Shown here piece by piece: positions 2,845 through 64,000 of a stretch of 64,000 nucleotides of DNA. Numbering within the stretch: position 1 is the stretch's first letter; every line of letters starts with the position of its first letter. Under the pieces are notes generated by a model. The model saw nothing but the letters and a program-made list of their open reading frames with translations, did no database searches and was not told the origin of the DNA. The DNA comes from Chloroflexota bacterium (lineage in GTDB: Bacteria; Chloroflexota; Dehalococcoidia; Lucifugimonadales; JACPCL1). The translations under genes and the position numbers were made by a program. The stretch lies in NCBI GenBank assembly GCA_016179765.1, contig JACPCL010000036.1:13916-77915 (forward strand), read 5' to 3'.

Positions 2845-2883
2845 GGCGGGACATCCGCGTTGGTCATTACCACGAAAATAGCT

Positions 2884-2970
2884 TCCTTCCCCCTTGCGGG
2901 GGAGGATTGAGGTGGGGGGTCGCCTTGATTCACCCCCATCCTCACCTTCCCCCGTCAAGGGGGAAGGAAC
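2884..2970. repeat. Rep-A palindromic repeat (two-arm copy)
   Basis: Arm 1 is CCCCCTTGCGGGGGAGGATTGAGGTGGGG and arm 2 is CACCCCCATCCTCACCTTCCCCCGTCAAGGGGGAAGG. The arms are imperfect inverted copies and each holds its own hairpin. Bases 2927-2970 match 61995-62038 at 43 of 44 positions. Confidence 0.8.
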
Positions 2971-3022
2971 TGGGAACCAGCCACGGAATTACACAATCCT
3001 TCATAACTCGGACAGCAAATCC

Positions 3023-5617: not shown

Positions 5618-5644
5618 ATGCGCAAAACACGCATGGAGCGCAAA

Positions 5645-5899: not shown

Positions 5900-5900
5900 A

Positions 5901-11629: not shown

Positions 11630-11639
11630 ACGCAAGAAA

Positions 11640-11675
11640 CCAAGAAACCCTGGACGTACGTCCAGGGTTTCTTGG
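11640..11675. terminator. terminator hairpin
   Basis: CCAAGAAACCCTGGACG / CGTCCAGGGTTTCTTGG, between convergent higA and clpC. Confidence 0.65.
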
Positions 11676-11688
11676 TTATGCCGGCTCT

Positions 11689-15528: not shown

Positions 15529-15787
15529 CCTAGCAGGCTGCGGAAAGGAAAAAGGGGGGTCCAGAGAGGGCTAAGCCCCCTCTGGCGGGGGACTGGGGGT
15601 GTCCCCCAGAGATACCCACTTAAGGCTTGCCCTCTCCATAACACGCGCTAAGGGGGGTCCAGCGGGGCAAAGCCCCGGAGCCTGCCCTGGTGAGCCGAAG
15701 CCCTGAACAACGTGAAGGGGCAGCGAAAGGGCGGGGGTCTGGGGGTGTCCCCCAGATACAAAGTCATCCCCGAAGGGGATGACTTTT
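15529..15787. repeat. Rep-B modular repeat, two tandem units
   Basis: CCTAGCAGGCTGCGGAAAGGAAAAAGGGGGGTCCAGAGAGGGCTAAGCCCCCTCTGG..GGGGGACTGGGGGTGTCCCCCAGAGATA, then a second unit GGGGGGTCCAGCGGGGCAAAGCCCC..GGGGGTCTGGGGGTGTCCCCCAGATACAAAGTCATCCCCGAAGGGGATGAC. Confidence 0.85.
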
Positions 15788-15878
15788 CCGAAGGCCTCCC
15801 GCCCAGAACGTGATACAGTATAGCGACGCCACCAAAGGACCGCGTCCGCAGGCATCTTACCGCACAGGAGCAGAGGGT

Positions 15879-25468: not shown

Positions 25469-25635
25469 GATGTTCCGAATACCACGGGGTGCCCCTTTCC
25501 TCCAACGGGATGTGTAAGGCTGTGGGTTGCGGCTGAACCGCAACCCACAGCCACTTACCTCGTCTGAAATCTGTAACAGTCCCAGAAGCCATGCCCCCTT
25601 TTGCCCCGAAGGCCGGAGTGGGGTAGACTTGGGAC

Positions 25636-26361
25636 ATGAGGATTGACGTGTTCACCCTGTTTCCGGGGATGTTCGGGGGTGTGCTTGGGGAAAGCATCAT
25701 TGGCCGGGCCATGGCCCATGACAGGCTGGAGGTGCGGCTGCACAACTTCCGGGAGCACGCTACGGACCGGCACCACACGGTGGACGACTACCCTTACGGT
25801 GGCGGCCCCGGCATGGTGCTCAAGCCAGAGTCGCTGTTCACCGCGGTGGAGGCAGCCCTGGGCACTCCGCCCTCCTGCCCGGTCATCCTGCTCACCCCCC
25901 AGGGCAAGCCCTTCCAGCAAAAGGATGCGGAGCGCCTGGCCCAGTTCCCGGCCTTTGCCCTGCTGTGCGGCCACTACGGCGGCGTGGACGAGCGCATTCG
26001 GCAGCATCTGGCCACCGAGGAGCTGAGCATCGGCGACTACGTGCTGACGGGGGGCGAGCTGGCCGCCATGGTCGTTATGGACGCCGTGGCCCGGCTGATC
26101 CCCGGCGTGCTGGGGTCTGAGGAGTCCCCTGCGTCAGACTCCCACACCACTGGTCTGCTGCAGTATCCCTTGTACACCCGGCCGCCGGAGTTCCGGGGCT
26201 GGAGTGTGCCAGAGGTGCTGCTTTCCGGTAACCACCAGGCCATCGCCCGCTGGCGGCGGCGGCAGGCCCTCCTGCGCACCCGAGAAAAGCGCCCAGACCT
26301 CCTGGTTAAGGCGGACCTGACCGAAGAGGACAGGCGCTTCCTTAACGAGCAGGAGCCTTAG
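25636..26361 (+). CDS. trmD: tRNA (guanine37-N1)-methyltransferase
   Basis: [29 protein letters not shown] and [13 protein letters not shown] motifs. Confidence 0.95.
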
Positions 26362-26442
26362 CAGGCTGCTGAAAAACACCCCCAAACCCCCGACAGAGAG
26401 GCTTCGCCCCTCTGGACTCCCCTTTCTTCCGCGGCCTATTAG
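26357..26442. repeat. Rep-B short copy (terminus X + hairpin + terminus Y)
   Basis: CTTAGCAGGCTGCTGAAAAACACCCCCAAACCCCC..AGAGAGGCTTCGCCCCTCTGGACTCCCCTTTCTTCCGCGGCCTATTAG. Its first bases contain the trmD stop TAG (26359-26361). Confidence 0.85.
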
Positions 26443-26488
26443 ATTCTTCGGTCGTCCACCTTTGGCGGACTCCCTCGGAATGATAACC

Positions 26489-26538
26489 CGTGAGCATCAA
26501 AAAGCCTGGGCAGTTGCCCAGGCTTTTTGATGCTCACG
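26489..26538. terminator. bidirectional terminator hairpin
   Basis: 24-bp perfect stem CGTGAGCATCAAAAAGCCTGGGCA-gt-TGCCCAGGCTTTTTGATGCTCACG, between convergent trmD and glnA. Confidence 0.75.
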
Positions 26539-28269: not shown

Positions 28270-28445
28270 CTTAGCAGGCTGCGGAAGAAAGGGGAGTCCA
28301 GAGGGGCGAAGCCCCGGAGCCTGCCATGAACGTAGCCGAAGGGACGGGGGTCTGGGGGTGTCCCCCAGATACAAATCCATCCGCCGCAGGCGGATACCTT
28401 GAACCCCTCGAGGGGGTTTGGGGGTGTTTTTCAGCGCCCTGTTAG
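28270..28445. repeat. Rep-B complete copy (reference copy)
   Basis: CTTAGCAGGCTGCGGAAGAAAGGGGAGTCCAGAGGGGCGAAGCCCC...GGGGGTCTGGGGGTGTCCCCCAGATACAAATCCATCCGCCGCAGGCGGATACCTTGAACCCCTCGAGGGGGTTTGGGGGTGTTTTTCAGCGCCCTGTTAG. Confidence 0.9.
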
Positions 28446-35800: not shown

Positions 35801-36994
35801 CTACCCCACCACCCACCCGTACCCTATCCCTAGCGCGCCTCCTCCCGCCACCAGCCACGCCGAGTTGAGGCGCGTGCGGAACACAAGTACCGTCGCTACC
35901 AAGGCCAGCACGATAGTGAAGGGGTCTATGATGGAGGCGCGGCCAAGCTGCAAGGCCACGCCCCCCATGAGGGCCAGGGACGCCACATTCACGCCGTCCA
36001 GGGCAGCGGCGGCCAGAGGCGAACGCCGCACCAGGGGCAGGATGCGGCTCAGGAGCGCAACGAAGACAAAGGCCGGCAGAAAGATGCCCACCGTCGCCAG
36101 GAGAGCCGCCGGCAGCCCGCCCACCACGTACCCCACAAAGGTAGCGGTGGTCAGCACCGGCCCCGGGGTGAACTGGCCGATGGCTATGGCGTCCAGAAGC
36201 TGCTGGTCCGTCAGCCAGCCCAAGCGGTCCACGAAGTCGCCGCGCAGGAAGGCCAGCAATACGTACCCGCTGCCATACAGCACGGAGCCGATCTTGAGGA
36301 AGTTCAGGAAGAGCGTCAGCAGGCTATACGGGGCCGCACCGGCGGGCAGCGTTCCCAGGGAGAGGCTGCCTAGCGGAAGCAGCGCAAGGCCCGCCACGCC
36401 CTTCTTGGCCAGACGTTTGCCACCGTAGACCAGCGCCATGACGATGCCGCCTGCGAAGACCAGTAGCACCTCGTTGACGCCCAGTAGGTAGAGGACCAGC
36501 GCCGCAACGCCGGCGGCTGCCAGCACAGGGCCTTTCACGGCGCGCCGTCCCAAGGCCCACAACGCCTGCACTACAACGGCGATAATGACGGGTTTGATGC
36601 CGTACAGGAGCCACTCGGCCTGGGGCGTGCCCCCGTAGCGTACGTAGGCCATGGCCACGGCCAGGACAATGAGCACGGCGGGGGTGATGAACAGCGCGCC
36701 CCCAAGGATGAGGCCCGGCCATCCGGCGCGACGCTTACCCAGGTGAATGGCCATCTCCGTGGAGTTGGGGCCGGGGATAAGGTTGGTGGCCCCGACCATA
36801 TCCAAGAAGTCCTGGTCATCCAGCCATTTGCGGCGGCGCACCACCTCGTCCCGCATCATGGCGATGTGGGCTGCCGGGCCCCCAAAGCCAATGACGCCTA
36901 GCTTCAGGAACAGCCAGGCAACCTCTCTCAAACGCCCCGGGGTTCCTGTGGCGATTGTGGGCCTCCTGAGGTATGTGCCGTAGGGGCGCAGCAC
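35801..36994 (-). CDS. chrA: chromate transporter ChrA
   Basis: Two CHR halves (FLKLGVIGFGGPAAHIAMM.., FLKIGSVLYGSGYVLLAFL..). The annotated GTG start lies inside a Rep-C palindrome, so the start is uncertain. Confidence 0.85.
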   Translation of the reverse strand: MLRPYGTYLRRPTIATGTPGRLREVAWLFLKLGVIGFGGPAAHIAMMRDEVVRRRKWLDDQDFLDMVGATNLIPGPNSTEMAIHLGKRRAGWPGLILGGALFITPAVLIVLAVAMAYVRYGGTPQAEWLLYGIKPVIIAVVVQALWALGRRAVKGPVLAAAGVAALVLYLLGVNEVLLVFAGGIVMALVYGGKRLAKKGVAGLALLPLGSLSLGTLPAGAAPYSLLTLFLNFLKIGSVLYGSGYVLLAFLRGDFVDRLGWLTDQQLLDAIAIGQFTPGPVLTTATFVGYVVGGLPAALLATVGIFLPAFVFVALLSRILPLVRRSPLAAAALDGVNVASLALMGGVALQLGRASIIDPFTIVLALVATVLVFRTRLNSAWLVAGGGALGIGYGWVVG

Positions 36995-37010
36995 GCTGCG
37001 CCCCTACGGC
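36977..37010. repeat. Rep-C palindrome
   Basis: GCCGTAGGGGCGCAGC-ac-GCTGCGCCCCTACGGC, directly downstream of the peroxiredoxin stop. Confidence 0.75.
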
Positions 37011-37014
37011 ATTA

Positions 37015-41705: not shown

Positions 41706-41813
41706 ATGGCGGCAGACCGGCGGATAAATAGGCGGGTGTACGAGGTGTACGGTCTTACTACTGCGGAACGGCGGCTGGTGGGGGGGACGCAGGTTGTCCG
41801 AAGGCCCCTGTAG
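41706..41813 (+). pseudogene. remnant resembling the C-terminal tail of type IIG/Eco57I-like R-M enzymes
   Basis: 35-codon ORF MAADRRINRRVYEVYGLTTAERRLVGG... recalls the ...IDRLVYELYGLTEEEIxIVEG tail. No upstream body is present. Confidence 0.3.
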
Positions 41814-41842
41814 GGGCGCAGCATGCTGCGCCCCTACAGGGG
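41805..41842. repeat. Rep-C palindrome (perfect)
   Basis: CCCCTGTAGGGGCGCAGCATGCTGCGCCCCTACAGGGG. Confidence 0.8.
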
Positions 41843-48678: not shown

Positions 48679-48757
48679 TGAGGTGGATGTCTGCGACCGC
48701 ACCCTGATGGTCTTCAACCAAATACTATTGCTTCCGTAAGCAGGACTTTACCCCCTA

Positions 48758-48832
48758 TCCACCCCTTCCCCCGCAAGGGGGGAAGGGGTGGGCTTCCTCC
48801 CCCTTGACGGGGGAGGATTGAGGTAGGGGTGA
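48758..48832. repeat. Rep-A two-arm copy
   Basis: CACCCCTTCCCCCGCAAGGGGGGAAGGGGTG..CCTCCCCCTTGACGGGGGAGGATTGAGGTAGGGGTG. Confidence 0.8.
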
Positions 48833-48950
48833 AACCCTCCGCTCATTACAAAATAAGCTATTTCGTTCATGACCTGAAGCGTGTGGCAATGGGTTTATAA
48901 GCCAACCCGTGAACGGGGCGGTGTCCTTCGCCGCCCATCCAGTACCTCCC

Positions 48951-51886: not shown

Positions 51887-52005
51887 TCCTGGTGTTTAGA
51901 GCGAGGTGGCACCACCCGTTCCCATCCCGAACACGGAAGTGAAACGCCTCAGCGCTGACGATATTGTGCCCGCGAGGGTATGGGAAAATAGGCCATCGCC
52001 AGGAC
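51887..52005 (+). rRNA. rrf: 5S ribosomal RNA
   Basis: UCCUGGUG...CCCAUCCCGAACACGGAAGUGAAACGCCUCAGCGCUGA...CGCCAGGA matches the bacterial 5S consensus, and helix I closes between the two ends. Confidence 0.85.
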
Positions 52006-52133: not shown

Positions 52134-52284
52134 CCTAACAGGCTGCTGAAAAACACCTTTAGACCATCCCCCTTGCCCCCTTTCTGGAAGGAAGGGGGCA
52201 GATTTTGTATCTGAGGGACACCCTCAGACTCCCGGCAGAGGGGCAAAGCCCCTCTGGACTCCCCTTCTTTCATCAGCCTTCTAG
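52134..52284. repeat. Rep-B copy with a nested Rep-A hairpin
   Basis: CCTAACAGGCTGCTGAAAAACACC..CCCCCTTGCCCCCTTTCTGGAAGGAAGGGGGCAG..TTTGTATCTGAGGGACACCCTCAGA..AGAGGGGCAAAGCCCCTCTGGACTCCCCTTCTTTCATCAGCCTTCTAG. Its end contains the fic stop codon. Confidence 0.85.
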
Positions 52285-53432
52285 AGGGCAGAGGAAGCTT
52301 CCAATGCATGGAGTACCTCCCTAGCAACATATAAACGTGGCCAGGAATTGGGTACGGGTTCTAGAATGCCGGCGGCTGCTAGTTTGTCCAAGACAGCGTG
52401 CGCTCCAGGGTTGCTGATGTTGAGCAACGCTGAAGCCCTTGGAGCGGTCATGAACGGCCCAGCTACCAATTCCTCAAGTAGACGAGTGGCGCTACCTGAC
52501 AAATGGTGTTCACGTGCTATTGTCATGTACCGCTCATGGACAGACCTCATCTGCTTAATTCGGGCTATGGCATCCCTGGATTGTTGCTCTACCCCGGCAA
52601 AGAAAAAGCTCAACCACCCTTTCCAGTCACCAGTGGCGCTCACGGCAAAGAGATGGTCGTAGTACTCTTCCCGGTGACGCTCAAAGTAGGCGCTCAAGTA
52701 CAGCAATGGCGCCGGAAGAACACCTTTGGCACAGAGGAACAAGATGATGAGCAAGCGGCCAACGCGGCCATTGCCATCAAGGTACGGGTGTATGGCCTCA
52801 AACTGATAGTGCACCATGGCGCAGGCTATGAGGGGAGGCAATAACGTATCTTCGTTGGCGAAGCGTTCCCAATCCAGGAGCAAATCGCGTACCACGTCTG
52901 CTGGGGGTGGCACGTAGCGGGCTTCCTCTATTGGCGTTCCCGGGACGCCGATATGGACCTGCTCCGTTCGCAGCTCACCGGGGCGTTTGTCCTCGTCACG
53001 CACTCCTCTCAGAAGCCTTTCATGTACTTGATTTATGAGACGCAACGAGATGGGCAGGCGATTCAAGAGGTCTAAGCCACGCTCCAATGCCCGAACATAG
53101 TTGGCAACTTCACGTACGTCGCCCCGGGGACGAGTTTCGTCCGAAGCCTCATACAGGAAAAGGTCTGAAAGAGAGGCGTACGTGCCTTCAATACTTGAGG
53201 AGAGCACAGCCTCACGGCGCATGAAGGGGCGGACCAGGATAGTAGGATTCGGGATCGTCTCCCCTACTCCTGCCAACGTGGCAACAGCCCTGCTTGCCTT
53301 ATCAAGTGCCACGATGAGGGGTGTTGAGAGAGCCATCTCCCTGGGAAGAGGATCAGGCACGAAGGCCACCTGGTTGTGCCCCAAGACAGGCACAAGCTTT
53401 CCGTTGGGGCTGCTGGCCAGACGTGACATCAT
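52281..53432 (-). CDS. fic: Fic-family protein (class II, N-terminal inhibitory helix)
   Basis: Fic motif HPYLDGNGRVGR. Inhibitory motif SSSIEG (S-x-x-x-E-G). C-terminal winged-helix-like region. Lower GC. Confidence 0.85.
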   Translation of the reverse strand: MMSRLASSPNGKLVPVLGHNQVAFVPDPLPREMALSTPLIVALDKASRAVATLAGVGETIPNPTILVRPFMRREAVLSSSIEGTYASLSDLFLYEASDETRPRGDVREVANYVRALERGLDLLNRLPISLRLINQVHERLLRGVRDEDKRPGELRTEQVHIGVPGTPIEEARYVPPPADVVRDLLLDWERFANEDTLLPPLIACAMVHYQFEAIHPYLDGNGRVGRLLIILFLCAKGVLPAPLLYLSAYFERHREEYYDHLFAVSATGDWKGWLSFFFAGVEQQSRDAIARIKQMRSVHERYMTIAREHHLSGSATRLLEELVAGPFMTAPRASALLNISNPGAHAVLDKLAAAGILEPVPNSWPRLYVAREVLHALEASSAL

Positions 53433-54974: not shown

Positions 54975-55142
54975 GGATACCCTCCTTGGCGGCGCGTGGG
55001 TATCACTATATACGCAACGTCAGGGGAAGGCCACAGGGCTTAAGGAGGGGACCTCCCATCGCATCGCCCTTGACACGTGCGCCAGGACGTGCCACTATAG
55101 GCGCATCTCTCACACCGTGCCTCAAGACATTTACGATTTCTA

Positions 55143-55916
55143 TTGGCCTCTCCCCAACCTCCGCCCAAAACGATCCGCTTGTCCCGCCAGGGGCCAGTGG
55201 CCTCCATACTCCTCCGACGACCTCGCGCTGCCAACCGGGTGAATCTGCGCATGGCTGAGGAGCTGGCCCTGGCTTGCGCGGCAATCAACCAGGATGACGC
55301 TATCCGGTGCGTAATGCTCTCCGGCAGCGGCGACGTTTTTTCCGCCGGCTGGGAGACGCCCCCGGTCACACCCGCTGCCGGACTCTCTCGCTACCAGGCC
55401 GCCATCGCCATTGCCAGCCTGCATGCGCCGGTTGTGGCCGCCATCAATGGCGACGCCATTGGCCAGGGGCTGGAGCTGGCCCTGGCCGCCGACCTTCGTA
55501 TCGCCGCCTCCACTGCTCACTTTGCCATGCCGCAGGTGGGCCACGGGCTGCTGCCCTGGGACGGCGGCACGCAGCGACTGGCCCGCATCGTGGGCCGCGC
55601 CTATGCCCTGGAACTGCTGCTGACGGGGGAGACCGTGGACGCGGCCACCGCCCTGCGCATGGGGCTGGTGAACCGCCTTGCGCCGCCCCAAGAGTTGCGC
55701 CAGGCGGTAGATGCGGTGGTGGGGCAGGTGATCGCCGCTGCGCCCATCGCCATACGCTACGCCAAAGAGGCGGTGCGGGACGGCGCCGAGCTGGCTCTAG
55801 CCCAGGGCTTGCGCTTAGAGGCAGACCTGACTATCCTCTTGCAGGGTACAAAAGACCGGGCGGAGGGAATCCGCTCCTTTATGGAGCGGCGGCCCGCCGT
55901 TTTTAGAGGCGAGTGA
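55143..55916 (+). CDS. enoyl-CoA hydratase/isomerase (crotonase) family protein
   Basis: VMLSGSGDVFSAGWE, AAINGDAIGQGLELALAADLRIA. TTG start. Confidence 0.85.
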   Translation: MASPQPPPKTIRLSRQGPVASILLRRPRAANRVNLRMAEELALACAAINQDDAIRCVMLSGSGDVFSAGWETPPVTPAAGLSRYQAAIAIASLHAPVVAAINGDAIGQGLELALAADLRIAASTAHFAMPQVGHGLLPWDGGTQRLARIVGRAYALELLLTGETVDAATALRMGLVNRLAPPQELRQAVDAVVGQVIAAAPIAIRYAKEAVRDGAELALAQGLRLEADLTILLQGTKDRAEGIRSFMERRPAVFRGE

Positions 55917-55958
55917 CCAGGTGGTTGCTACGCCACTGGGGAAGATTCGGAGGCCACG

Positions 55959-56552
55959 GTGAAATTGCGGCTGGACCTGCATACGCACATCTGGGAAGCA
56001 TCAGGTTTCCAGTCCCCTAATCTGGCCTGGGCGGAGAAGGTCGTCCAGCAGTGCAAGGCCAGGGGCATTGACGGTATTGCCATCACCGAGCACAAAATCC
56101 TGGAGCACAGCTTCGCCTACAAGCGCATCATTGAAACGCACTTCCCTGGCCAGCTCCTCGTCTTCCCTGGCTGGGAGATAGAGGAGCACTTCATAGACGA
56201 CTACTTTCAGACTCGGGAGGTGGGGGAGTTCCTGCTCCCCAATGGCAAGGTGTTCCGCAACTACTGCCATCCGGGCCATCCCTCCCGCACCATAGAGATA
56301 GACAGCGTCCAGTCCATTGAGGTGGACAACTGCCTGCACAACTGGCACATAGACAAGAAGCGGGTGGAAGCGGTAGCCAAGGAGCACAGCCTGCTCCTGA
56401 CCAGGGTGAGCGACGCCCACAACGTGGAGGACATAGGCAAGAACTACATTGAGGTTGAGCTGGAGGAGCTATGCGCCAGGGCCAAGGAGGTCCCTGGGTG
56501 GGGCCAGAGCATGAGGAGCTACGATGGCGACCCCGACCGTCCTGTACAATAA
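55959..56552 (+). CDS. PHP-like metal-dependent phosphoesterase
   Basis: LDLHTHIWEASG, GIAITEH and VSDAH motifs. GTG start. 29-nt overlap with the next gene. Confidence 0.6.
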   Translation: MKLRLDLHTHIWEASGFQSPNLAWAEKVVQQCKARGIDGIAITEHKILEHSFAYKRIIETHFPGQLLVFPGWEIEEHFIDDYFQTREVGEFLLPNGKVFRNYCHPGHPSRTIEIDSVQSIEVDNCLHNWHIDKKRVEAVAKEHSLLLTRVSDAHNVEDIGKNYIEVELEELCARAKEVPGWGQSMRSYDGDPDRPVQ

Positions 56553-57282
56553 GGAAGGGCCGGTGGCGTGGGTGACCTTGAACCGTCCCCATGTCCTCAA
56601 CGCCTACAACATGGCCATGAGGGACGAGCTCTACACCACCCTTGAAGCGGTGCGAGATGATCCGGAGGTGCGTGGGGTGATCCTGGCCGGCGCGGGCGAG
56701 CGGGCCTTCTGCGCGGGGGCGGACCTCACGGAGTTTGGCGCTGCGCCCTCACAGGCCATCGCCCGCCAGGTACGGTGGGAGCGTGACGTGTGGGGCCTCT
56801 TCCTGGGCATGGACAAGCCTATGGTGGCTGCCGTGCACGGATATGTCCTGGGCTCTGGGGTGGAGATGGCGCTGCTCTGCGACCTGCGCATCGCCGCGGA
56901 GGATGCTCTCTTTGGCCTGCCGGAGACCGCTCTTGGCCTGATCCCTGCGGCGGGCGGTACCCAGACCCTGCCCAGGTGTATCGGAGTGGCGGAAGCGCTG
57001 GACCTGTTGCTGACAGGCCGTCGCCTATCCGCCGCGGAGGCCTTTGGCCTTGGTTTGGTGACCCAGGTCATGCCCAGGCGTCAGCTTCATGAGCAGGCGC
57101 GGCTGACCTTGGAACGCATCATTCGCACAGACCCGGCGGCGCTGGCCAGCGCCAAACGCGCCGTCCACGAAGGGTTGGATATGCCCTTGGGAGAGGCGTT
57201 AGCCCTGGAGGAGCGCCTGGCCGGGGGGCTGCTGCACCAGGGGAAGAGGGGGAGCAGGAGAGCCGGCCGGCCGGCGCCGTAG
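56524..57282 (+). CDS. enoyl-CoA hydratase/isomerase (crotonase) family protein
   Basis: VAWVTLNRPHVLNA, GAGERAFCAGADL, AAVHGYVLGSGVEMALLCDLRIA. Confidence 0.85.
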   Translation: MATPTVLYNKEGPVAWVTLNRPHVLNAYNMAMRDELYTTLEAVRDDPEVRGVILAGAGERAFCAGADLTEFGAAPSQAIARQVRWERDVWGLFLGMDKPMVAAVHGYVLGSGVEMALLCDLRIAAEDALFGLPETALGLIPAAGGTQTLPRCIGVAEALDLLLTGRRLSAAEAFGLGLVTQVMPRRQLHEQARLTLERIIRTDPAALASAKRAVHEGLDMPLGEALALEERLAGGLLHQGKRGSRRAGRPAP

Positions 57283-57351
57283 CGTCCCTGGACGACGTTC
57301 CTGGGCACACGTATCATGAACCCTGCGGGACCGTCAACTCAGAGGAGTCCC

Positions 57352-58965
57352 ATGAACACTACCGAGTTCTTAGCCCTGTCTAGCGCCATTGTCCCCCAGA
57401 GGGAGGCCGTCATCTTTGAGGAGAAACGCTTTTCCTACGAAGACTTGCTGGAGCGGGTCAATCGCCTGGCGGACGCCCTGGCCAACCGGGGCATTGGCCG
57501 CGGCGACCGCATCGCAGCCATTCAGGTCAACTGCAACGAGCATATAGAGGCATACTTCGCCGCCGCCAAACTGGACGCCATCTACGTCCCCATCAACTTC
57601 CGCGTGAAGAACGATGAGCTGAGCTTCATGCTCAAGGACTCGGAGCCCAAGGCGCTCCTGGCAGGCGGCCGGTACTACGATCTGGTGGAGGCGGGCACCA
57701 AAGGCGTACCCTCCCTGAATACGCTCATTGCCCTGGACGGCCCACACGACTCCTGGCTCTCCTACGAGAAGCTCCTGGCTTCGGGCAAGAACGAGGAGCG
57801 CTTCCCCCAGGGTGACGATGATGACACCACCATCATCATGTTTACCGCAGGCACAACCGGCACGCCCAAGGGCGTCATGCTCACCTACAACAGCTTCGCC
57901 TCTTACATCATCTCCAACATCAGCCCCGCTGACCCGGAGGTGGAGGAACGGAACATCCTCACCGTGCCGCTGCACCACATCGCCGGCATGCAGGCGGTCC
58001 TGTCCGCTATCTATGGAGGCCGCACCCTCATCATCCAGCGCCAGTTCCAGCCCGTGGAGTGGATGCAACTGGTCCAGCGGGAGAAGGTCAACCGGGCCAT
58101 GATGGTCCCCACCATGCTCAAGCAGCTCATTGACCATCCCGACTTCCTCAAGTACGACCTCTCCAGCCTTCAGGTCATCACCTACGGCGCCGCTCCCATG
58201 CCGTTGCCCGTTATCCAGGACGCCATCAGAAAGCTGCCCAAGACAAGGTTCATCAATGCCTTTGGCCAGACGGAGACCGCCTCCACCATTACCATGCTGC
58301 CGCCTGAGGACCATGACCTCAGCGGCTCCCCTCAGGTGGTGCAGAGGAAGCTCAAGCGCCTCTCCTCCATCGGCAAGCCCCTGGAGGACGTGGAGGTGCG
58401 CATCGTGGATGAGCAGGGGATTGACGTGCCCAAGGGCGAGGTGGGTGAGATCATCGCCAGCGGCCCACGCCTGATGAAGGGGTACTGGCATCGGGAGGAC
58501 GCCACCAGGGAGACCATGCGCAACGGCTGGCTCTTCACCGGCGACCTGGGCTACATGGACGAAGACGGCTACATCTTCCTGGCCGGACGGGCCAAGGACT
58601 TCATCAAGCGCGGCGGCGAGATGATCTCGCCTGATGAGGTGGAGCAGGTGCTCATGTCCCACCCGGCGGTGGATGAGGCCGCCATCATTGGCGTGCCGGA
58701 CGACTACTGGGGCGAGCGCATCCGGGCGGTAGTGGTGGTGCGCCCCGGTAGCCGGGTGACGGGCCAGGAGCTCATAGAGCACTGCCACGAGCGGCTGGCC
58801 AGCTACAAGCGTCCCGAGTCGGTGGTGTTCGTTCCAGAGCTGCCGCGCAACCCCATGGGGAAGGTGCTCAAACGGGTGCTACGGGAGGAGTTTGGCCAGC
58901 CCATCGTAGAGGGCGGAGACGCCAGCTCCGTTGGGAAAGGGCAGCCGAGGGCAAGGGCAAATTGA
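57352..58965 (+). CDS. AMP-dependent acyl-CoA synthetase/ligase
   Basis: ATG 57352 after GAGGAG. IMFTAGTTGTPKGV, TGDLGYMDEDGYIFLAGRAKD and PRNPMGKVLKR motifs. Confidence 0.9.
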   Translation: MNTTEFLALSSAIVPQREAVIFEEKRFSYEDLLERVNRLADALANRGIGRGDRIAAIQVNCNEHIEAYFAAAKLDAIYVPINFRVKNDELSFMLKDSEPKALLAGGRYYDLVEAGTKGVPSLNTLIALDGPHDSWLSYEKLLASGKNEERFPQGDDDDTTIIMFTAGTTGTPKGVMLTYNSFASYIISNISPADPEVEERNILTVPLHHIAGMQAVLSAIYGGRTLIIQRQFQPVEWMQLVQREKVNRAMMVPTMLKQLIDHPDFLKYDLSSLQVITYGAAPMPLPVIQDAIRKLPKTRFINAFGQTETASTITMLPPEDHDLSGSPQVVQRKLKRLSSIGKPLEDVEVRIVDEQGIDVPKGEVGEIIASGPRLMKGYWHREDATRETMRNGWLFTGDLGYMDEDGYIFLAGRAKDFIKRGGEMISPDEVEQVLMSHPAVDEAAIIGVPDDYWGERIRAVVVVRPGSRVTGQELIEHCHERLASYKRPESVVFVPELPRNPMGKVLKRVLREEFGQPIVEGGDASSVGKGQPRARAN

Positions 58966-59084
58966 CCTGGCCAAGCCGCGTGCTTGCTTTGCTCTCCCTT
59001 GACCCGTCAGAAGTCTGGAGCCTAAGGGAGATGGTAAGGGCTTTGCCAGTTTGTCCCCTTCGCTAGTGGGAGGTTCACCCGCCC

Positions 59085-60839
59085 GTGTCCAGACTTCGTT
59101 GTTTGCTAGCATTTCCTGTCGCTGCCATGGCCATCTTTGTCTTGGCGGCTTGTTCCTCTGGAGCGCCCCCAGCCGCGGACACCCGTTCGCCTTCCCCACT
59201 TCCTGGCCGAACGCCCGCTCCGTCTCCCAGCGCAACGATTGCGCAATGGCCTTTCCCTACGGCAACTCCAACGGCGACGGAGCTCCATGGCGTGCGTACC
59301 CGTCCGCCCTTGGACGCTGGGAGAATCGCCGCCATTGACCAGCACGCTCTGGATGCTCCCGATTCCGCCGAGCAGTCCATCAAGGCCCTTGCGTCGTACC
59401 TCGTTTCCCCCGCCCAGGACGACGTTGAGAAGGCAAGGGCTATCTATCGTTGGATTACCGATAACATCGCTTACGATTTCGCGAGCTACCTCTCCAAAAG
59501 GTATCCGGACCAAAGCGCTGAAGCCGTCATGAAACGTCGGACAGGGGTGTGTAGTGGCTACGCCAATCTTTTTGCGGCCTTGGGAAAGGCTGCGGGGTTG
59601 CAGGTGGAAGTGATTAGTGGTTGGTCAAAGGGCTACGCGTATGTAAACAACACCTTGGACGAAGAGCCCAACCACGCCTGGAACGCAGTGCGCCTAGACG
59701 GCGGCTGGTATCTTGTGGAGTCAACTTGGGGCGCTGGCTTCATTAGCGAAGAGAAGCAGTTCGTGCGCAGATTTGATGGCTATTACTTCCTGACATCGCC
59801 CCAAGAACTTATCTTTGATCACTACCCCGTGGACTCGCGCTGGCAATTGCTTGTCGTACCGGTAGCGAAGCAAGAGTTTCTCTCTTTGCCCCGGGTATGG
59901 CCGGAATTCTTTGAAAACGGCATTGGTCTAGAAAGCCATCGTCAGGCAGGGATTCGTGCAAATCGTGAGGTGGATGTTACCCTTTCGGCTCCCTTGGACG
60001 CGCTCCTGTTGGTGACCCTCCACAGAGGTGAGGAGGACTTGTCGGATTTGATGACTTTTGTGCAACGTTCTGGTGGGGACTACCATGTCAAGGCGGCATT
60101 CCCGGGGGCTGGCGAGTATCGCCTAACGGTCTTCTCCAAGAAAGCATCTGACCAGGGTCCGTTTCACAGCACCTTAGAGTACACCGTAGCTGTGGCGGTC
60201 GGTGACCCTTCCCATCCCGGATTCCCAAAGGTGTGGCCCGCCTTTTTTGACAACCAGCTTGGGTTTGTCAGCCACTCCGGCGGCATGATTGCGGCGGCAG
60301 GTGAAGTGCTGGTTACCCTGTCAGCGCCTCCGGATGTTCTTCTCTTGGCCAGCCTCAGCCGTGATGGCCAGGAGCTTTCAGCCGGCCTGACCTTTGTCCA
60401 GCGCAAAGGTGCAGACTACAACGTCAGCGCCGCTTTCCCTACAGCAGGGCGGTATGCACTGACCATCTTCTCCAAGCGTGCTAGGAGCGATGGCCTTTAC
60501 AAAAGCTCTCTGGAGTATACTCTCCAAGTGAGCAAAGGTGCCCCCGGACTTTCCTATCCAACCACCTACAGCTCTTTCTCACAGAGAGGCGTTGTGCTCT
60601 ACAGCCCCTTCTCCGGGACGCTCCCTTTGGGCAGCACCCAAACCTTTCGGTTGCAAGTGCCAGGAGCTGAGCAGGTGGCGGTAATCATTGATGAACAGTG
60701 GCACTACCTGAACGGTGACGGTGGCCTTTTTGAGGGGTACGTAGCTATAGACGGGCAGGAGATCGGGGTGTACGCCAAGTTCCCCGGCAACACCCAGTTC
60801 AGCGGTCTCCTCAATTACACCTCTGGGCCTGTCCCCTAG
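59085..60839 (+). CDS. transglutaminase-domain lipoprotein with three C-terminal repeat domains
   Basis: Lipobox FVLAAC. Cys-His-Asp core GVCSGYANLF..HAWNAV..D. Two clear ~105-aa repeats (PRVWPEFFENG.. and PKVWPAFFDNQ..) plus a third, diverged one. Confidence 0.8.
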   Translation: MSRLRCLLAFPVAAMAIFVLAACSSGAPPAADTRSPSPLPGRTPAPSPSATIAQWPFPTATPTATELHGVRTRPPLDAGRIAAIDQHALDAPDSAEQSIKALASYLVSPAQDDVEKARAIYRWITDNIAYDFASYLSKRYPDQSAEAVMKRRTGVCSGYANLFAALGKAAGLQVEVISGWSKGYAYVNNTLDEEPNHAWNAVRLDGGWYLVESTWGAGFISEEKQFVRRFDGYYFLTSPQELIFDHYPVDSRWQLLVVPVAKQEFLSLPRVWPEFFENGIGLESHRQAGIRANREVDVTLSAPLDALLLVTLHRGEEDLSDLMTFVQRSGGDYHVKAAFPGAGEYRLTVFSKKASDQGPFHSTLEYTVAVAVGDPSHPGFPKVWPAFFDNQLGFVSHSGGMIAAAGEVLVTLSAPPDVLLLASLSRDGQELSAGLTFVQRKGADYNVSAAFPTAGRYALTIFSKRARSDGLYKSSLEYTLQVSKGAPGLSYPTTYSSFSQRGVVLYSPFSGTLPLGSTQTFRLQVPGAEQVAVIIDEQWHYLNGDGGLFEGYVAIDGQEIGVYAKFPGNTQFSGLLNYTSGPVP

Positions 60840-60845
60840 GAATCG

Positions 60846-60973
60846 AAGGTATCCCCTTCGGGGATTGATTTGTATCTGGGGGACACCCCCAGACCCCCGC
60901 CCCTTCGCTACCACTCAGGACAGGCTCCGAGGTTTCGCCCCTCTGAACTCCCCTTTTTTCAGCAGCCTCTTAG
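60846..60973. repeat. Rep-B copy (inverted orientation)
   Basis: AAGGTATCCCCTTCGGGGATTGATTTGTATCTGGGGGACACCCCCAGACCCCC..GGTTTCGCCCCTCTGAACTCCCCTTTTTTCAGCAGCCTCTTAG. Confidence 0.85.
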
Positions 60974-60988
60974 GTTGGGGCTGATGGC

Positions 60989-62203
60989 TTACCTTGTGGG
61001 CAGGAGCGCCTGCGCCCTCTGCGCCGCCCGCTGGGCGGCCTCCGCCACAAGCTCTGGGGCGCGGGCCAGGGCCTCGGCCAGGGGCATTCCGGCGGGAGCG
61101 GCGGCCTCGGCCAGGGCGATGCCTTGCCCCAGCAGCGCTTCGTACCCTGGCCCAAAGGAGCCGGCCACGGCAATCACCGGCACGCCCCTGCGCTGGGCAC
61201 GGCGGGCCACGGCCATTGGGGCCTTGTCGTAGGCGGTCTGCCAGTCCAGGCGACCCTCGCCGACGACTGCAAGGTCGGCTCCTTCCAGGGCGGCGTCCAG
61301 CCCCAGAGCATCGCACACGATGTCCGCGCCAGAGCCGACCTCCGCTCTCAGGAGGGCAAAGAGGCCGGCCCCCGCGCCGCCCGCCGCCCCCATGCGCAGG
61401 CGGGCCAGCACCTCCACCCCCAGGTCTCGCCGTACCACCTGAGCAAAGTGATAGAGGGCGGCATCCAGTTCCGTCACCACCTCGGGCGTTGCGCCCTTTT
61501 GCGGCCCGTAGGTGGCGGAGGCGCCTTCCGGACCGCAGAGGGGGTTGGCGACGTCGGCAGCGGCCAGGATGCGCGTCTCCCTCAGGCGCGGGTCCAGCGG
61601 GACAAGGTCAATTTCGGCGAGGCGGGACAGGGCCGCGCCACCCGTGGGCAGTTCCCGACCAGCACGGTCCAGGAAGCGAGCGCCCAAGGCCTGGGCGATG
61701 CCCGCGCCGCCGTCGTTGGTGGCGCTACCCCCAAGGCCGATAATGATGCGCCGGTAGCCAGCGTCCAGGGCGGCCCTGAGGAGCTGGCCCGTGCCGTAGG
61801 TGGTGGCGCGCCGGGGGTCGCGGCGGCCCTCCGATAGCAGGGCCAGGCCGGAGGCCCTCGCCAGCTCTATGACGGCGGTCTGCCTATTGGCCTGACCACG
61901 GGCGTCCATGACGCCCCAGTCGGCCTGGAGCGGCTCGCCCAGGGGGCCGGTGACGGCGGTGTGGAAGAGGCGACCTCCGGGCTGCTGGACTGGGGATTCA
62001 CCCCCATCCTGACCTTCCCCCGTCAAGGGGGAAGGAACAGCAGAAACCAGGGTCTCCAGGGTGCCATCGCCGCCGTCGGCCACGGGAAGCAGAACGAGGC
62101 GCGCCTGGGGGAAGACGCGGCCCAGGCCCCGGGCGATGGCCTGGGCCGCCTCTATGCCGCGCAGCCCGCCCTTGAAGGCCTGGGGGCAGATGAGGATGTT
62201 CAT
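60989..62203 (-). CDS. glxK: glycerate kinase
   Basis: MNILICPQAFKGGL, PVADGGDGT, VTGPLG, GGSATNDGGAG. Carries a 20-codon in-frame repeat-derived insert. Confidence 0.85.
   Translation of the reverse strand: MNILICPQAFKGGLRGIEAAQAIARGLGRVFPQARLVLLPVADGGDGTLETLVSAVPSPLTGEGQDGGESPVQQPGGRLFHTAVTGPLGEPLQADWGVMDARGQANRQTAVIELARASGLALLSEGRRDPRRATTYGTGQLLRAALDAGYRRIIIGLGGSATNDGGAGIAQALGARFLDRAGRELPTGGAALSRLAEIDLVPLDPRLRETRILAAADVANPLCGPEGASATYGPQKGATPEVVTELDAALYHFAQVVRRDLGVEVLARLRMGAAGGAGAGLFALLRAEVGSGADIVCDALGLDAALEGADLAVVGEGRLDWQTAYDKAPMAVARRAQRRGVPVIAVAGSFGPGYEALLGQGIALAEAAAPAGMPLAEALARAPELVAEAAQRAAQRAQALLPTR
61979..62038. repeat. Rep-A arm inserted in frame within glxK
   Basis: 61995-62038 matches 2927-2970 at 43/44 positions. 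Encodes VPSPLTGEGQDGGESPVQQP between conserved ..TLVSA and GGRLFHTAVTGPLG. Confidence 0.8.
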
Positions 62204-62205
62204 GA

Positions 62206-62282
62206 TGGAGCGGGGGACGGGATTTGAACCCGCGACAACCTGCTTGGAAGGCAGGAGCTCTGCCGGACTGAGCTACCCCCGC
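62206..62282 (-). tRNA. tRNA-Gly (anticodon UCC), CCA encoded
   Basis: GCGGGGGTAGCTCAGTCCGGCAGAGCTCCTGCCTTCCAAGCAGGTTGTCGCGGGTTCAAATCCCGTCCCCCGCTCCA folds as a 77-nt cloverleaf. Anticodon loop is CTTCCAA. Confidence 0.9.
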
Positions 62283-62468
62283 GCGGGGAGCTATCACCAG
62301 TGTATATCAGGCTGGCTTGCATCGCTAGCGGGCGGTTTTCACGCGCCGTGCGCCTCGGGTTGACGCTACGGGACCCACAAGGTGCGGTATGCGCCGCTCG
62401 GTTCACGTGGCGGCGCTGGCCACACCAGGCAAAGGGAACCGTTCTCTCCGGTCAGCCTGGGGCAAAGC

Positions 62469-63986
62469 TTAGATCACGGCCTTTTTCAGCCATCCATCCC
62501 CCAGGAAATAGGGCACAAAAGCCAGGGCGCGGATGAGCATGGCGATGGTGATGGCCCAGGCGATGCCGAACTGGCCCCAATGGGCAATGGTAGGGAAGGT
62601 CACGGTAAGGCCAAAGAGGCCGACCGGAATGGGGGTTCCCGTCAGCATGAGGGCGAGAGGCACCTCAATGATCCAGAAGCTCACGAGGCTCACCACCATG
62701 GGTATGAGGGTGGCCCCAGCCGTGTTAAAGGACTGGGCGAAGACCTGCCCGGCGCCCAAGCAAAAGACGCTCAGGGCCAGGATTCGGAGCCAGTCCACTC
62801 CGAGAGGAATGAGCTCCGGGTCCCGCGTAAAGGCTCTGACCACCCATGGGGCGAAGATGATGAGGAGCAGCGTAAGGGCGCCAGCGAGAGCTATGACGTA
62901 GCCCAAAGCCCACAGCACCGTCTTGCGAGCGCGGTCGGGGCTGCCAGCCCCGAGGTTCTGTCCGACGAGCACGCCGGAAGCCTGGCCCAGCCCGCCGCCG
63001 CCAAGCTGGGCCAGGCTCTCCGCCCGGCGAGTGAGGGCAAAGGCGGCCAGGGCCAGGGTGCCGAAGTGGGCCACCAAGGCTACGAGCACGAGCTGGGCCG
63101 TAGAGCGTTCCATGCCCGTCACCGAGGCGGGAAAGCCAATCTTGATGATGCGCCACAGGATGGGCAGGTCTGGCCGATAGCCTCGGAGGGTCAGGTGCAA
63201 ACGCGAGCTGCCCCGGAAAAGCACCGCGAAGTTCCATGTTGACCCTCCAAACTGGGCGATGACATCGGCCAGGGCAGCGCCAGCAATGCCCATCTCCGGG
63301 AAGAACAACCAGCCGAAGATGAGGAAGGGCGAAAGGACGATGTGGGTGACCCGGGTCAGGGTGGTGGCCTTCATGGGGGTGATGGCATCGCCGGCGGCCT
63401 GAAGAGCCGCACCGCCCATCTGCCGGAAGGAAACACCGATGACGCTGAGGAATTGGATACGCAAATAAAGGGATGCGCTATCAATGATGTCCTGGCCCAG
63501 GCCAAGGAGTTGCATAAGTGGGACGGCGAAGATTGCGCCGGACAAACCTATGATGAGGGAAAAACCGCCGCTGAGCGTAAAACCTTGGAGGGCAAGGTGG
63601 TTGGCGAGGCGGGCGTCCTTGGCTCCGATGGCCCGGGCGACCTGGGCCCGCATGGCCGTGTCAAAACCCATGCGCCCCGTCATGGTGAGCTGGCGGTAGG
63701 TCTGGGCGATGCCTACACCGGCGATGGCGCTGACGCTGATGATACCCGCCCAGATGAGGTCAATGATCTGGTCTACGACGTTAAGGACGCTCTCCACCAT
63801 CTGAGGCCAGGCAAGCCACCACAGGTTTCTGGGGATGCTGCCCTGGGTGAGGTCACGGCCTTTGAGGGATATTGCCCTACGTCCGGCCCCTCTTTGAGGG
63901 ACAGCGGGAGCTTCAGCGACGGTGGAGGCGATAGCGGCGGATTGCCCCTGGTCGGGAGATGGGCCTTCAGATGCGGTAGTTGACAA
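62469..63986 (-). CDS. MATE-family efflux transporter
   Basis: 12-TM profile. N-terminal LTQGSIPRNLWWLAWPQMVESVLNVVDQIIDLIWAG is typical of NorM/DinF-type MATE. TTG start uncertain. Confidence 0.85.
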   Translation of the reverse strand: MSTTASEGPSPDQGQSAAIASTVAEAPAVPQRGAGRRAISLKGRDLTQGSIPRNLWWLAWPQMVESVLNVVDQIIDLIWAGIISVSAIAGVGIAQTYRQLTMTGRMGFDTAMRAQVARAIGAKDARLANHLALQGFTLSGGFSLIIGLSGAIFAVPLMQLLGLGQDIIDSASLYLRIQFLSVIGVSFRQMGGAALQAAGDAITPMKATTLTRVTHIVLSPFLIFGWLFFPEMGIAGAALADVIAQFGGSTWNFAVLFRGSSRLHLTLRGYRPDLPILWRIIKIGFPASVTGMERSTAQLVLVALVAHFGTLALAAFALTRRAESLAQLGGGGLGQASGVLVGQNLGAGSPDRARKTVLWALGYVIALAGALTLLLIIFAPWVVRAFTRDPELIPLGVDWLRILALSVFCLGAGQVFAQSFNTAGATLIPMVVSLVSFWIIEVPLALMLTGTPIPVGLFGLTVTFPTIAHWGQFGIAWAITIAMLIRALAFVPYFLGDGWLKKAVI

Positions 63987-64000
63987 GATAGAGAGCGCCT

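What the first reader, a model, noticed from the sequence alone, without database searches (positions are those of the whole stretch)
61979..62038. Palindromic repeat (Rep-A) inserted in frame inside glycerate kinase
Bases 61995-62038 within glxK are 43/44 identical to the intergenic Rep-A arm at 2927-2970 (GATTCACCCCCATCCTsACCTTCCCCCGTCAAGGGGGAAGGAAC). The 60-nt block adds 20 codons (VPSPLTGEGQDGGESPVQQP) between ADGGDGTLETLVSA and GGRLFHTAVTGPLG. As I recall, other glycerate kinases such as Bacillus GlxK (ADGGEGTVQSLVDATGGRI..VTGPLG) have these two segments contiguous. The reading frame is preserved. This resembles the in-frame insertions of Rickettsia palindromic elements, where a selfish repeat adds a peptide loop to a functional enzyme.
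Basis: partly seen in the sequence, partly recalled or inferred. Interest (0 to 1): 0.6.

Follow-up and report, generated by a model that had tools for sequence, protein, structure and literature searches.

The report
Palindromic repeat inside glycerate kinase gene
A short, selfish-looking palindromic DNA repeat sits in frame inside an otherwise normal glycerate kinase gene and adds a floppy 20-residue loop; this kind of event is already known, but here related bacteria carry the repeat at the same spot.

Summary
Bases 61995-62038 match the intergenic copy at 2927-2970 at 43 of 44 positions. The 60-nt block 61979-62038 encodes residues 56-75 of an intact glycerate kinase (60989-62203, minus strand). 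These residues are absent from both solved glycerate kinases and from most orthologs.

The repeat is a REP-like unit: a 9-bp G+C-rich hairpin followed by the tail TYAGGATGGGGGTGA. It is very widespread in Dehalococcoidia genomes. In this window it also occurs as two intergenic inverted dimers.

The insert is not specific to this genome. [quoted passage not shown] The closest relative has lost 39 nt of it and has gained a second palindromic insert elsewhere in the gene.

The gene is under purifying selection (dN/dS 0.22-0.30). The insert is modelled as a disordered loop. Every glxK copy carries CAG where the repeat consensus has TAG, a stop codon in this frame.

Intragenic REPs and Rickettsia palindromic elements are already described, so this is a new member of a known kind. 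What is unusual is the long persistence and the DNA-level conservation of the intragenic copy.

The parts
60989..62203 (-). glxK, glycerate kinase family gene (404 aa), intact and full length
   Evidence: PF02595, E 5.7e-125. 3cwc E 2.2e-88. AlphaFold model pLDDT 92.3, TM 0.80-0.88 to 3cwc and 1to6. dN/dS 0.22-0.30 against orthologs.
61979..62038 (-). 60-nt in-frame insert, codons 56-75 (VPSPLTGEGQDGGESPVQQP)
   Evidence: 19-residue gap in the alignment to 3cwc. Absent from most orthologs. pLDDT below 50 for residues 62-72, no secondary structure between helix 48-54 and strand 78-85.
61997..62035 (-). Core REP-like unit on the coding strand: hairpin CCTTCCCCC-TTGAC-GGGGGAAGG followed by the tail TCAGGATGGGGGTGAA
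   Evidence: This is the span shared with most of 134 extragenic copies from other genomes. Some copies match further, over 61988-62041.
62013..62035 (.). 9-bp G+C-rich stem-loop (stems 62013-62021 and 62027-62035, loop 62022-62026), encoding PSPLTGEG
61987..62009 (-). Second, weaker hairpin GGATGGGGGTGAATCCCCAGTCC within the insert. The 39 nt deleted in the closest relative (61979-62012 plus the first GGAGG of the flank) cover it.
   Evidence: Folds. The extension GGGGGTGAAaCCCCA recurs in other copies. Deletion in L001.
2883..2970 (.). Intergenic inverted dimer of the same repeat (arms 2883-2920 and 2932-2969, 11-nt spacer).
   Evidence: I8. DNA fold -36.2 kcal/mol, z -7.4. The same dimer is 88.6% identical in another Chloroflexi MAG, L056. 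It lies upstream of the probable ATG at 3024.
48746..48837 (.). Second intergenic inverted dimer of a diverged subtype of the repeat
   Evidence: (D4, I6, I9). DNA fold z -5.2.

Best explanation
A unit of a REP-like interspersed palindromic repeat family lies in frame in a structurally permissive, disordered loop of a working glycerate kinase. The unit is a 9-bp G+C hairpin plus the tail TYAGGATGGGGGTGA, and the loop lies between the helix that follows the invariant ADGGDGT motif and the next beta strand.

Shown here:
- The insert is repeat DNA.
- The gene stays intact and under purifying selection.
- The same hairpin occupies the same site, orientation and frame in several diverged Dehalococcoidia/Chloroflexota orthologs.
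- Around that hairpin the architecture keeps changing. Other repeat units are added on either side, and the closest relative has a 39-nt deletion bounded by the short direct repeat AGGTC.
- All glxK copies carry CAG where the family consensus has TAG, a stop codon in this frame.

Inferred:
- The core hairpin entered glxK once, in an ancestor of this clade, and was inherited vertically.
- Only an in-frame, stop-free copy in a tolerant loop could survive.
- The copy has since been kept close to the family consensus by gene conversion from the many genomic copies, or by whatever constraint keeps all copies of this family alike.
- Lineages that lost the hairpin drifted to short PSxGxG-type loops.
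- The peptide itself is most likely a neutral passenger.
For: Repeat identity:
- 43/44 match to 2927-2970, none expected by chance.
- Consensus AGTC, hairpin, TTAGGATGGGGGTGA from 134 copies.

Insert status and gene function:
- Gap against 3cwc. Most orthologs lack the insert.
- dN/dS 0.22-0.30 in five comparisons.
- Confident model with a low-confidence coil only at the insert. Fold matches glycerate kinases.

Shared site, orientation and frame:
- Seen in L001, L002/L003, L004, L005, L006 and L043.
- L043 was found through the repeat scan, not through glxK.
- Sister orthologs L002 and L004 share the rare tail variant GGATAGGGGT (A at that position in 5 of 134 copies).

Conservation beyond the gene background:
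- The arm is 35/37 identical (34/37 against L005) where the genes are 74-77% identical and third codon positions 55-59% (P about 1e-5 to 1e-7 against third positions).
- Window against L043 is 35/36 by my count from the sequences printed, with gene identity 68.6%.

Stop-codon filter:
- 78 of 134 copies have TAG and only 12 have CAG at the codon after GGN. Every glxK copy whose tail is intact (window, L002, L004, L005, L006, L043) has CAG; L001 has lost that part of the tail.

Permissive-site filter:
- Among 121 orthologs, internal insertions of 8 aa or more occur at only two places, after residues 55 and 262.

Rarity of in-frame copies:
- Of about 130 copies fetched by the repeat scan, only L043 (glxK) and L063 lie deep inside credible ORFs.
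Against: - A single origin is not proven. A site- and strand-specific insertion mechanism would also give the same orientation and frame each time.
- L043 lies in a different sub-clade from the window, among orthologs with degenerate loops. This fits re-insertion or conversion better than simple inheritance.
- L007 has a same-length but decayed insert although its genome still carries the repeat, so conservation is not universal.
- No mobilising enzyme was found. No target-site duplication was seen.
- Nothing here shows that the protein is made or is active.
- The NJ tree is crude.
Confidence: 0.75

Rival explanations
1. Recurrent independent insertion. The loop codons of glxK are a mutational hot spot, for example because an earlier hairpin or its remnant attracts new units. 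Each lineage acquired its present hairpin separately and recently from its own genomic repeat population.
For: - The intragenic copies are almost identical to the family consensus despite dS of 0.7-0.9 between the genes.
- Architectures differ between orthologs. A second repeat type lies to the right in L002 and to the left in L004, there is an inverted arm in L043, and an inverse flank in L005.
- L043 is phylogenetically separated from the window clade.
- Di Nocera et al. report REPs inserted within small palindromes in Thermomicrobium roseum, and different REPs at about the same site in the recB genes of two Xanthomonas species (PMC3733652).
Against: - All six lineages have the same orientation and the same one of four open frames. 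If insertion were unbiased this has a chance of roughly (1/4)^5.
- L002 and L004 share a rare tail variant.
- The left junction falls at the same codon in the window, L001, L002 and L005.
Confidence: 0.3
2. The hairpin, or the peptide, is functional and selected at this locus. It could be an mRNA or DNA structure that tunes glxK translation or co-translational folding, a binding site for a repeat-binding protein, or a loop with a role in the enzyme.
For: - Synonymous positions of PSPLTGEGQDGG are conserved across orthologs far beyond the gene background.
- L006 keeps the stem through paired changes, CTCTCCCCC with GGGGGAGAG.
- The insert and its flanks fold more stably than shuffles (RNA z -2.6, DNA z -3.5).
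- The site lies seven residues after the invariant ADGGDGT motif.
Against: - The closest relative deleted 13 of the 20 codons.
- Several clade members have no insert or a decayed one (L007, L127-L129, P0012, P0015).
- The hairpin sequence is the same as hundreds of extragenic copies, so its conservation need not be local.
- The L006 variant may simply be that genome's own repeat subtype.
- The loop is modelled as disordered.
Confidence: 0.1
3. Artefact or dead gene. The block is an assembly chimera created by a repeat, or glxK is a pseudogene in which the repeat is tolerated because the gene no longer matters.
For: Repeats are a classic cause of misassembly. No reads are available here.
Against: - The same arrangement is present in independent assemblies from different projects (JGI L001, ENA L002, NCBI L003, L004, L005, L006, L043).
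- The frame is open over 404 codons with every family-invariant residue aligned.
- dN/dS is 0.22-0.30.
Confidence: 0.03

Closest known systems
Intragenic REPs (repetitive extragenic palindromes found inside ORFs), as catalogued by Di Nocera, De Gregorio and Rocco 2013 (PMC3733652)
   Same: - Short G+C-rich stem-loop unit with a stem of about 9 bp and a loop of about 5 nt.
- Interspersed and mostly intergenic, with single units and inverted dimers.
- Occasional copies lie wholly inside ORFs and encode about 20-30 residues.
- Different REPs at about the same site in orthologous genes are reported there for the recB genes of two Xanthomonas species.
   Different: - The unit here carries neither the GTAG nor the CGTC end tag that defines the two superfamilies in that paper. 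The 4 nt in front of the stem are AGTC in 37 of 134 copies and NGTC in 53 of 134, and the stem starts CC, not with A/T pairs.
- The host clade (Dehalococcoidia) and the target gene (glxK) are not in that catalogue as far as I read it.
- Persistence across orthologs with dS of about 0.7-0.9 is documented here.
Rickettsia palindromic elements (RPE; Ogata et al. 2000, as summarised in PMC10969869 and PMC3733652)
   Same: Palindromic repeats are inserted in frame into unrelated housekeeping genes. They add a peptide segment judged compatible with the fold, and the host gene stays functional.
   Different: - RPE-1 type elements are about 100-150 bp with a conserved encoded peptide. This unit is about 40-55 nt.
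- There is no sequence relationship, and the host is a free-living Chloroflexota lineage, not an obligate intracellular alphaproteobacterium.
- In Rickettsia many genes are hit. Here in-frame copies look rare (2 loci among about 130 copies).
REPINs and their RAYT transposases (Bertels and Rainey 2011, PMC3116915; later work on long-term vertical persistence, bioRxiv 10.1101/2021.07.10.451892)
   Same: - The two intergenic elements in the window are inverted doublets of the unit with a short spacer that fold into one long hairpin.
- The glxK copy is a singlet.
[quoted passage not shown]
   Different: No RAYT gene was found in the window or in about 0.9 Mb of repeat-bearing loci (weak tests). 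There is no GTAG tag. The same unit occurs across several phyla, whereas REPIN-RAYT systems are described as lineage-bound.
Bacterial MITEs that make in-frame fusions (intragenic ERIC, Coxiella QMITE1; review PMC10969869)
   Same: A non-autonomous small repeat contributes coding sequence to a host ORF.
   Different: No terminal inverted repeats of a parent insertion sequence and no target-site duplication were recognised. The unit is much shorter.

Membership tests
Glycerate kinase family (Pfam PF02595) | Full-length match to the family profile and to solved glycerate kinase folds | tested here: met
   E 5.7e-125 over profile positions 1-369 of 372. 3cwc E 2.2e-88. Model TM 0.80-0.88 to 3cwc and 1to6.
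REP (repetitive extragenic palindrome), generic sense | Short (20-40 nt) imperfect palindrome forming a G+C-rich stem-loop | tested here: met
   9-bp stem, 5-nt loop, 39-nt conserved unit.
REP (repetitive extragenic palindrome), generic sense | Many interspersed copies, mostly between genes | tested here: inconclusive
   The window holds five arms in 64 kb, four of them intergenic. More than 119 loci were found in other genomes, nearly all outside credible ORFs. The copy number in the source genome itself cannot be counted from one window.
GTAG-tagged REP superfamily (PMC3733652) | GTAG (or a close variant) at one end of the stem | tested here: not met
   The 4 nt next to the stem are AGTC, AATC or TGTC on one side and TTAG or CTAG on the other. 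No GTAG.
CGTC-tagged REP superfamily (PMC3733652) | CGTC (TGTC or CCTC variants) at one end, stem of 8-9 bp starting with A/T pairs, loop of 4-5 nt, CCA-like tail | tested here: not met
   NGTC in 53 of 134 copies, but the first base is mostly A (TGTC in 8 of 134). The stem begins CC/GG and the tail is TYAG. Stem length and loop length do fit.
REPIN | Two REP units in inverted orientation separated by a short spacer | tested here: met
   2883-2920 with 2932-2969 (11-nt spacer), and 48746-48789 with 48798-48837. The glxK copy is a singlet.
REPIN | A cognate RAYT (Y1 HUH transposase) gene in the genome, usually flanked by the repeat | not testable with these tools
   This needs the whole genome. 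Weak negatives only: tblastn with an E. coli RAYT sequence recalled from memory found nothing better than E 1.2 in the window plus 126 loci. The 17 ORFs flanked on both sides by the hairpin, judged by eye from their N-termini without a family search, do not look like transposases.
Rickettsia palindromic elements | Membership of one of the RPE sequence families of Rickettsia (about 100-150 bp, conserved peptide) | tested here: not met
   The unit is 39-55 nt and the host is Chloroflexota. The sequence was not compared directly with RPE consensus sequences. It works like an RPE but is not one.
MITE | Terminal inverted repeats derived from an insertion sequence, and target-site duplications | tested here: inconclusive
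   No duplication is visible at the junctions when filled and empty orthologs are compared. A weak GCTG...CAGC closing stem exists, but it is not shared by other copies.

The most novel reading that the evidence does not exclude
The intragenic hairpin is not a passive passenger. A single REP-like unit has been held at one codon position of glxK, with near-perfect DNA identity, through divergence that saturated synonymous sites. The same 39-nt unit is shared by Dehalococcoidia, Proteobacteria (including isolates), Phycisphaerae and Nitrospiria. This would imply a conserved trans-acting partner (a binding protein or recombinase) or frequent templated repair that maintains every copy, coding ones included. 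glxK would then be a natural reporter for measuring that process.
Probability: 0.12. Interest if true: 0.7.

Novelty: new member of a known kind. Interest (0 to 1): 0.4.

Why it matters
The finding adds a free-living, uncultured lineage (Dehalococcoidia) and a central-metabolism enzyme to the short list of cases where palindromic repeats become part of a working protein.

The series of orthologs shows the life history of such an insert:
- entry into a tolerant loop;
- filtering for a stop-free variant;
- accretion of further units;
- microhomology deletion;
- decay to a short linker.

It also poses a concrete, testable question. Why does an intragenic copy stay almost identical to the family consensus while the surrounding gene diverges to 69-77% nucleotide identity?

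There is a practical point for annotators. REP-encoded peptides such as PSPLTGEGQDGGE inside real enzymes are not frameshifts or chimeras.

Tried and rejected
- Rfam. The gathering scan of the whole window found only 5S rRNA and one tRNA. An E-value scan of 61900-62120 found nothing. An E-value scan of 2840-3020 gave only sub-threshold matches to eukaryotic miRNA-precursor hairpins on both strands, which is a generic resemblance to a long hairpin.\n- RAYT search. tblastn with a remembered E. coli YafM sequence gave nothing better than E 1.2. ORFs bracketed by the repeat did not look like transposases from their N-termini; they were not scanned against a family library.\n- search for related loci in metagenome contigs with GlxK. 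It gave no new close relatives. The best hit was the already known 73% ortholog and the rest were 57% or less.\n- Peptide search for other proteins carrying PSPLTGEGQDGGE. It returned only unrelated primer and microsatellite hits.\n- The second palindromic unit found in L001 glxK was looked for in the window and in all loci. It occurs only in L001 glxK.\n- Candidate in-frame copies in L025, L057 and L102. From reading the translated ORFs, the repeat lies upstream of the likely start codon of what look like a DsbD-like protein, a CoA-transferase and a large secreted protein. No family search was run on them. They are not counted as in-frame.\n- GTAG and CGTC classification was considered and rejected.\n- One script timed out and was rerun in a simpler form.

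Full report
**1. The observation**

The window was read directly at both places. The 44-mer GATTCACCCCCATCCTSACCTTCCCCCGTCAAGGGGGAAGGAAC occurs exactly twice, at 2927-2970 and 61995-62038. The two copies differ at one base, and no match appeared in 100 dinucleotide-preserving shuffles.

The ORF 60989-62203 on the minus strand (404 aa) is a full-length member of the glycerate kinase family (PF02595, E 5.7e-125).

HMMER aligns the solved Salmonella enzyme 3cwc (E 2.2e-88) along the whole protein with a single 19-residue gap placed exactly over VPSPLTGEGQDGGESPVQQ.

**2. What the repeat is**

Within the window the repeat forms two intergenic inverted dimers:
- 2883-2920 with 2932-2969, separated by an 11-nt spacer;
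- 48746-48789 with 48798-48837.

glxK holds a single arm. As single-stranded DNA the dimers fold into one long hairpin far more stable than shuffles (z -7.4 and -5.2).

Most are Dehalococcoidia MAGs, several with many copies per chromosome. Copies also occur in Proteobacteria (including the isolates Chiayiivirga flava and Deefgea rivuli), Phycisphaerae and Nitrospiria.

Aligning 134 copies gives the consensus unit AGTC, CCTTCCCCC-TTGAC-GGGGGAAGG, TTAGGATGGGGGTGA(A). BLAST of the glxK insert against all these copies shows that the shared span is usually 61997-62035 and sometimes 61988-62041. So at least 39, and up to about 54, of the 60 inserted bases are repeat DNA.

Copies from unrelated genomes are as close to the glxK copy as the window's own intergenic copy is, for example 40/40 and 43/44. 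The 43/44 identity therefore reflects how uniform the family is, not necessarily a recent jump from 2927.

Rfam has no family for the repeat.

**3. The gene is alive and the insert is a loop**
- dN/dS against five orthologs is 0.22-0.30.
- An AlphaFold model built on 65 sequences has mean pLDDT 92.3 and pTM 0.91. It matches the glycerate kinases 3cwc and 1to6 with TM 0.80-0.88.
- The only segment with pLDDT below 50 is residues 62-72. Residues 55-77 have no secondary structure and lie between helix 48-54 and strand 78-85.
- Across 121 orthologs, internal insertions of 8 residues or more occur at only two positions, after residue 55 and after residue 262. Both look like permissive loops.

**4. 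The insert is not private to this genome**

The 120 best homologs are Chloroflexota proteins, and the nearest is 80% identical. Most have nothing at the site (LVDA-TGGQ and similar). A clade around the query has inserts of 6-42 residues there.

I fetched the DNA of these orthologs and read the site. The same hairpin, in the same orientation and reading frame (PSPLTGEG), is present in the following:

| Locus | Relation to the window | State of the site |
|---|---|---|
| L001 | 91% nt identical; contig syntenic with 55062-64000 | hairpin only |
| L002/L003 | ortholog | hairpin with tail variant GGATAGGGGT, then a second repeat type to the right |
| L004 | ortholog | second repeat type to the left, then hairpin with GGATAGGGGT |
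| L005 | ortholog | inverse flank on the left; loop TTGC |
| L006 | ortholog | stem variant CTCTCCCCC/GGGGGAGAG, plus two other hairpin units |
| L043 | Lake Baikal MAG | inverted arm plus direct arm |

L043 was not fetched as a glxK. It turned up among the repeat hits and proved to be glxK with the repeat at the same site.

Other clade members have decayed or short loops:
- L007: VPPALAHGGAG..., an insert of the same length with a decayed sequence;
- L129: APARQDGGPG;
- L127: PSPGDG.

These plausibly derive from the repeat, but that is not proven.

Independent assemblies from JGI, ENA and NCBI agree, which argues against an assembly chimera.

**5. Turnover**

Relative to the window, L001 lacks 39 nt (13 codons). 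The missing segment is bounded by AGGTC on both sides: GGAAGGTC...GGAGGTC in the window against GGAAGGTC in L001. The outgroups keep QD(G/R)G after GEG, so this is a deletion in the L001 lineage.

L001 has also gained, after residue 262-264, three tandem 36-nt palindromic units encoding EGGPSGASLKDG. These units are found nowhere else in the data held.

**6. Two filters are visible**

The first is a stop-codon filter. In the glxK frame the consensus tail reads GGT TAG. Of 134 copies, 78 have TAG at that codon and 12 have CAG. Every glxK copy whose tail is intact (L001 has lost that part) has CAG.

The second is position. Of about 130 copies obtained through the repeat scan, only two lie deep inside credible ORFs: L043 glxK and a hypothetical protein in L063 that carries several such units. 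Other candidates lie upstream of the likely start codon, judging from the translated ORFs.

Within the window, glxK is the only confidently called gene with a repeat-family hairpin well inside it.

**7. Conservation that needs explaining**

Between orthologs whose genes are 74-77% identical, with third codon positions 55-59% identical, the 37-nt arm is 35/37 identical (34/37 against L005). This gives P about 1e-5 to 1e-7 against the third-position rate and 0.001-0.02 against overall identity.

The window and L043 copies differ at 1 of 36 bases. I counted this from the sequences printed, because the script's own figure for that pair is off by a 1-nt register shift. Their gene identity is 68.6%.

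The segment encodes a disordered loop and its synonymous positions are conserved too. The constraint therefore acts on DNA or RNA, not on the protein.

Three readings remain:
- inheritance with gene conversion from the many genomic copies;
- repeated site-specific re-insertion;
- selection on the nucleic-acid structure.

Evidence for a single origin of the core hairpin:
- all lineages share the same orientation and the same one of four open frames;
- the left junction falls at the same codon in the window, L001, L002 and L005;
- the sister orthologs L002 and L004 share the rare tail variant A (5 of 134 copies).

Evidence for re-insertion or conversion:
- the architectures differ between orthologs;
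- L043 sits in a different sub-clade.

I rate a single origin with later remodelling as more likely, but it is not settled.

**8. Comparison with what is known**

In-frame palindromic elements are classic in Rickettsia (summarised in PMC10969869).

Di Nocera et al. 2013 (PMC3733652) catalogued REPs wholly inside ORFs in several species. These encode 20-30 residues and are sometimes at about the same site in orthologs of related species. The phenomenon is therefore known.

The unit here does not meet the definitions of that paper's GTAG or CGTC superfamilies. It is not an RPE by size, and it was not compared with RPE consensus sequences. It resembles REPINs in forming inverted doublets.

No RAYT was found, but the tests were weak and the whole genome is needed.

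I found no paper that mentions this sequence or its peptide.

**9. Verdict**

It is a new member of a known kind.

The claim that the insert is lineage-specific has to be replaced. The insert is shared and remodelled across a clade of Chloroflexota orthologs and is absent from distant glycerate kinases. The unusually strict DNA conservation of the intragenic copy is the part most worth following up.

Noticed in passing
L001:9878-9987 (glxK of the closest relative; corresponds to window residue 262-264, about 61410-61420): A second in-frame insert: three tandem 36-nt palindromic units (GGAGGCCCC-TCT-GGGGCCTCC core) encoding EGGPSGASLKDG three times. It is absent from the window and from every other locus held.
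   Followed up: partly
L025, L045, L015, L021/L038, L074 and others: The identical 23-nt hairpin with a GGATGGGGGTGA-type tail also occurs outside Chloroflexota. It is found in the isolates Chiayiivirga flava DSM 24163 and Deefgea rivuli DSM 18356, and in Betaproteobacteria, Phycisphaerae and Nitrospiria MAGs. A REP-like unit shared across phyla at this level of identity is unexplained.
   Followed up: no
window 60846-60974; also 8069-8137, 15580-15794, 26359-26443, 28272-28444, 52211-52285: A different and larger interspersed repeat family, with modules such as GGCGGGGGTCTGGGGGTGTCCCCCAGA and GGCTTCGCCCCTCTGGACTCCCC. One copy lies immediately downstream of the glxK stop, between convergent genes. 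It is 86-100% identical between copies.
   Followed up: no
window 36976-37011 and 41805-41842: Two copies of a perfect palindrome GTAGGGGCGCAGCAYGCTGCGCCCCTAC that begins with GTAG. This may be a GTAG-tagged REP of the classical kind, co-resident with the family studied here.
   Followed up: no
window 62206-62282 (-): tRNA-Gly(UCC) ends 3 nt upstream of the glxK ATG on the same strand, leaving essentially no room for a separate promoter or ribosome-binding site.
   Followed up: no
window 51888-52004 (+): A 5S rRNA gene with no 16S or 23S match anywhere in the 64-kb window. It appears to be unlinked from the other rRNA genes.
   Followed up: no
L063:about 4970-6310 (+): A hypothetical ORF of about 445 codons that contains several copies of the repeat-encoded peptide (TPSPSTGEGWDGGEN, APSPLTGEGWDGGEN, PLPEGEGWGEG). 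It may be a protein partly built from these repeats, or a spurious ORF across a repeat cluster.
   Followed up: no
P0034, P0036, P0042 (GlxK orthologs), after query residue 262: The second permissive site carries 24-aa or 2 x 24-aa inserts (IDVSKAPGGEA..VVGRQPA) in another sub-clade. These are unrelated in sequence to the L001 insert at the same place.
   Followed up: no
window 26489-26538, 4447-4489, 11638-11677, 25518-25552: Long perfect intergenic palindromes (stems of 21, 18, 16 and 14 bp) that are not part of the families above. They are probably terminators or further repeat types.
   Followed up: no
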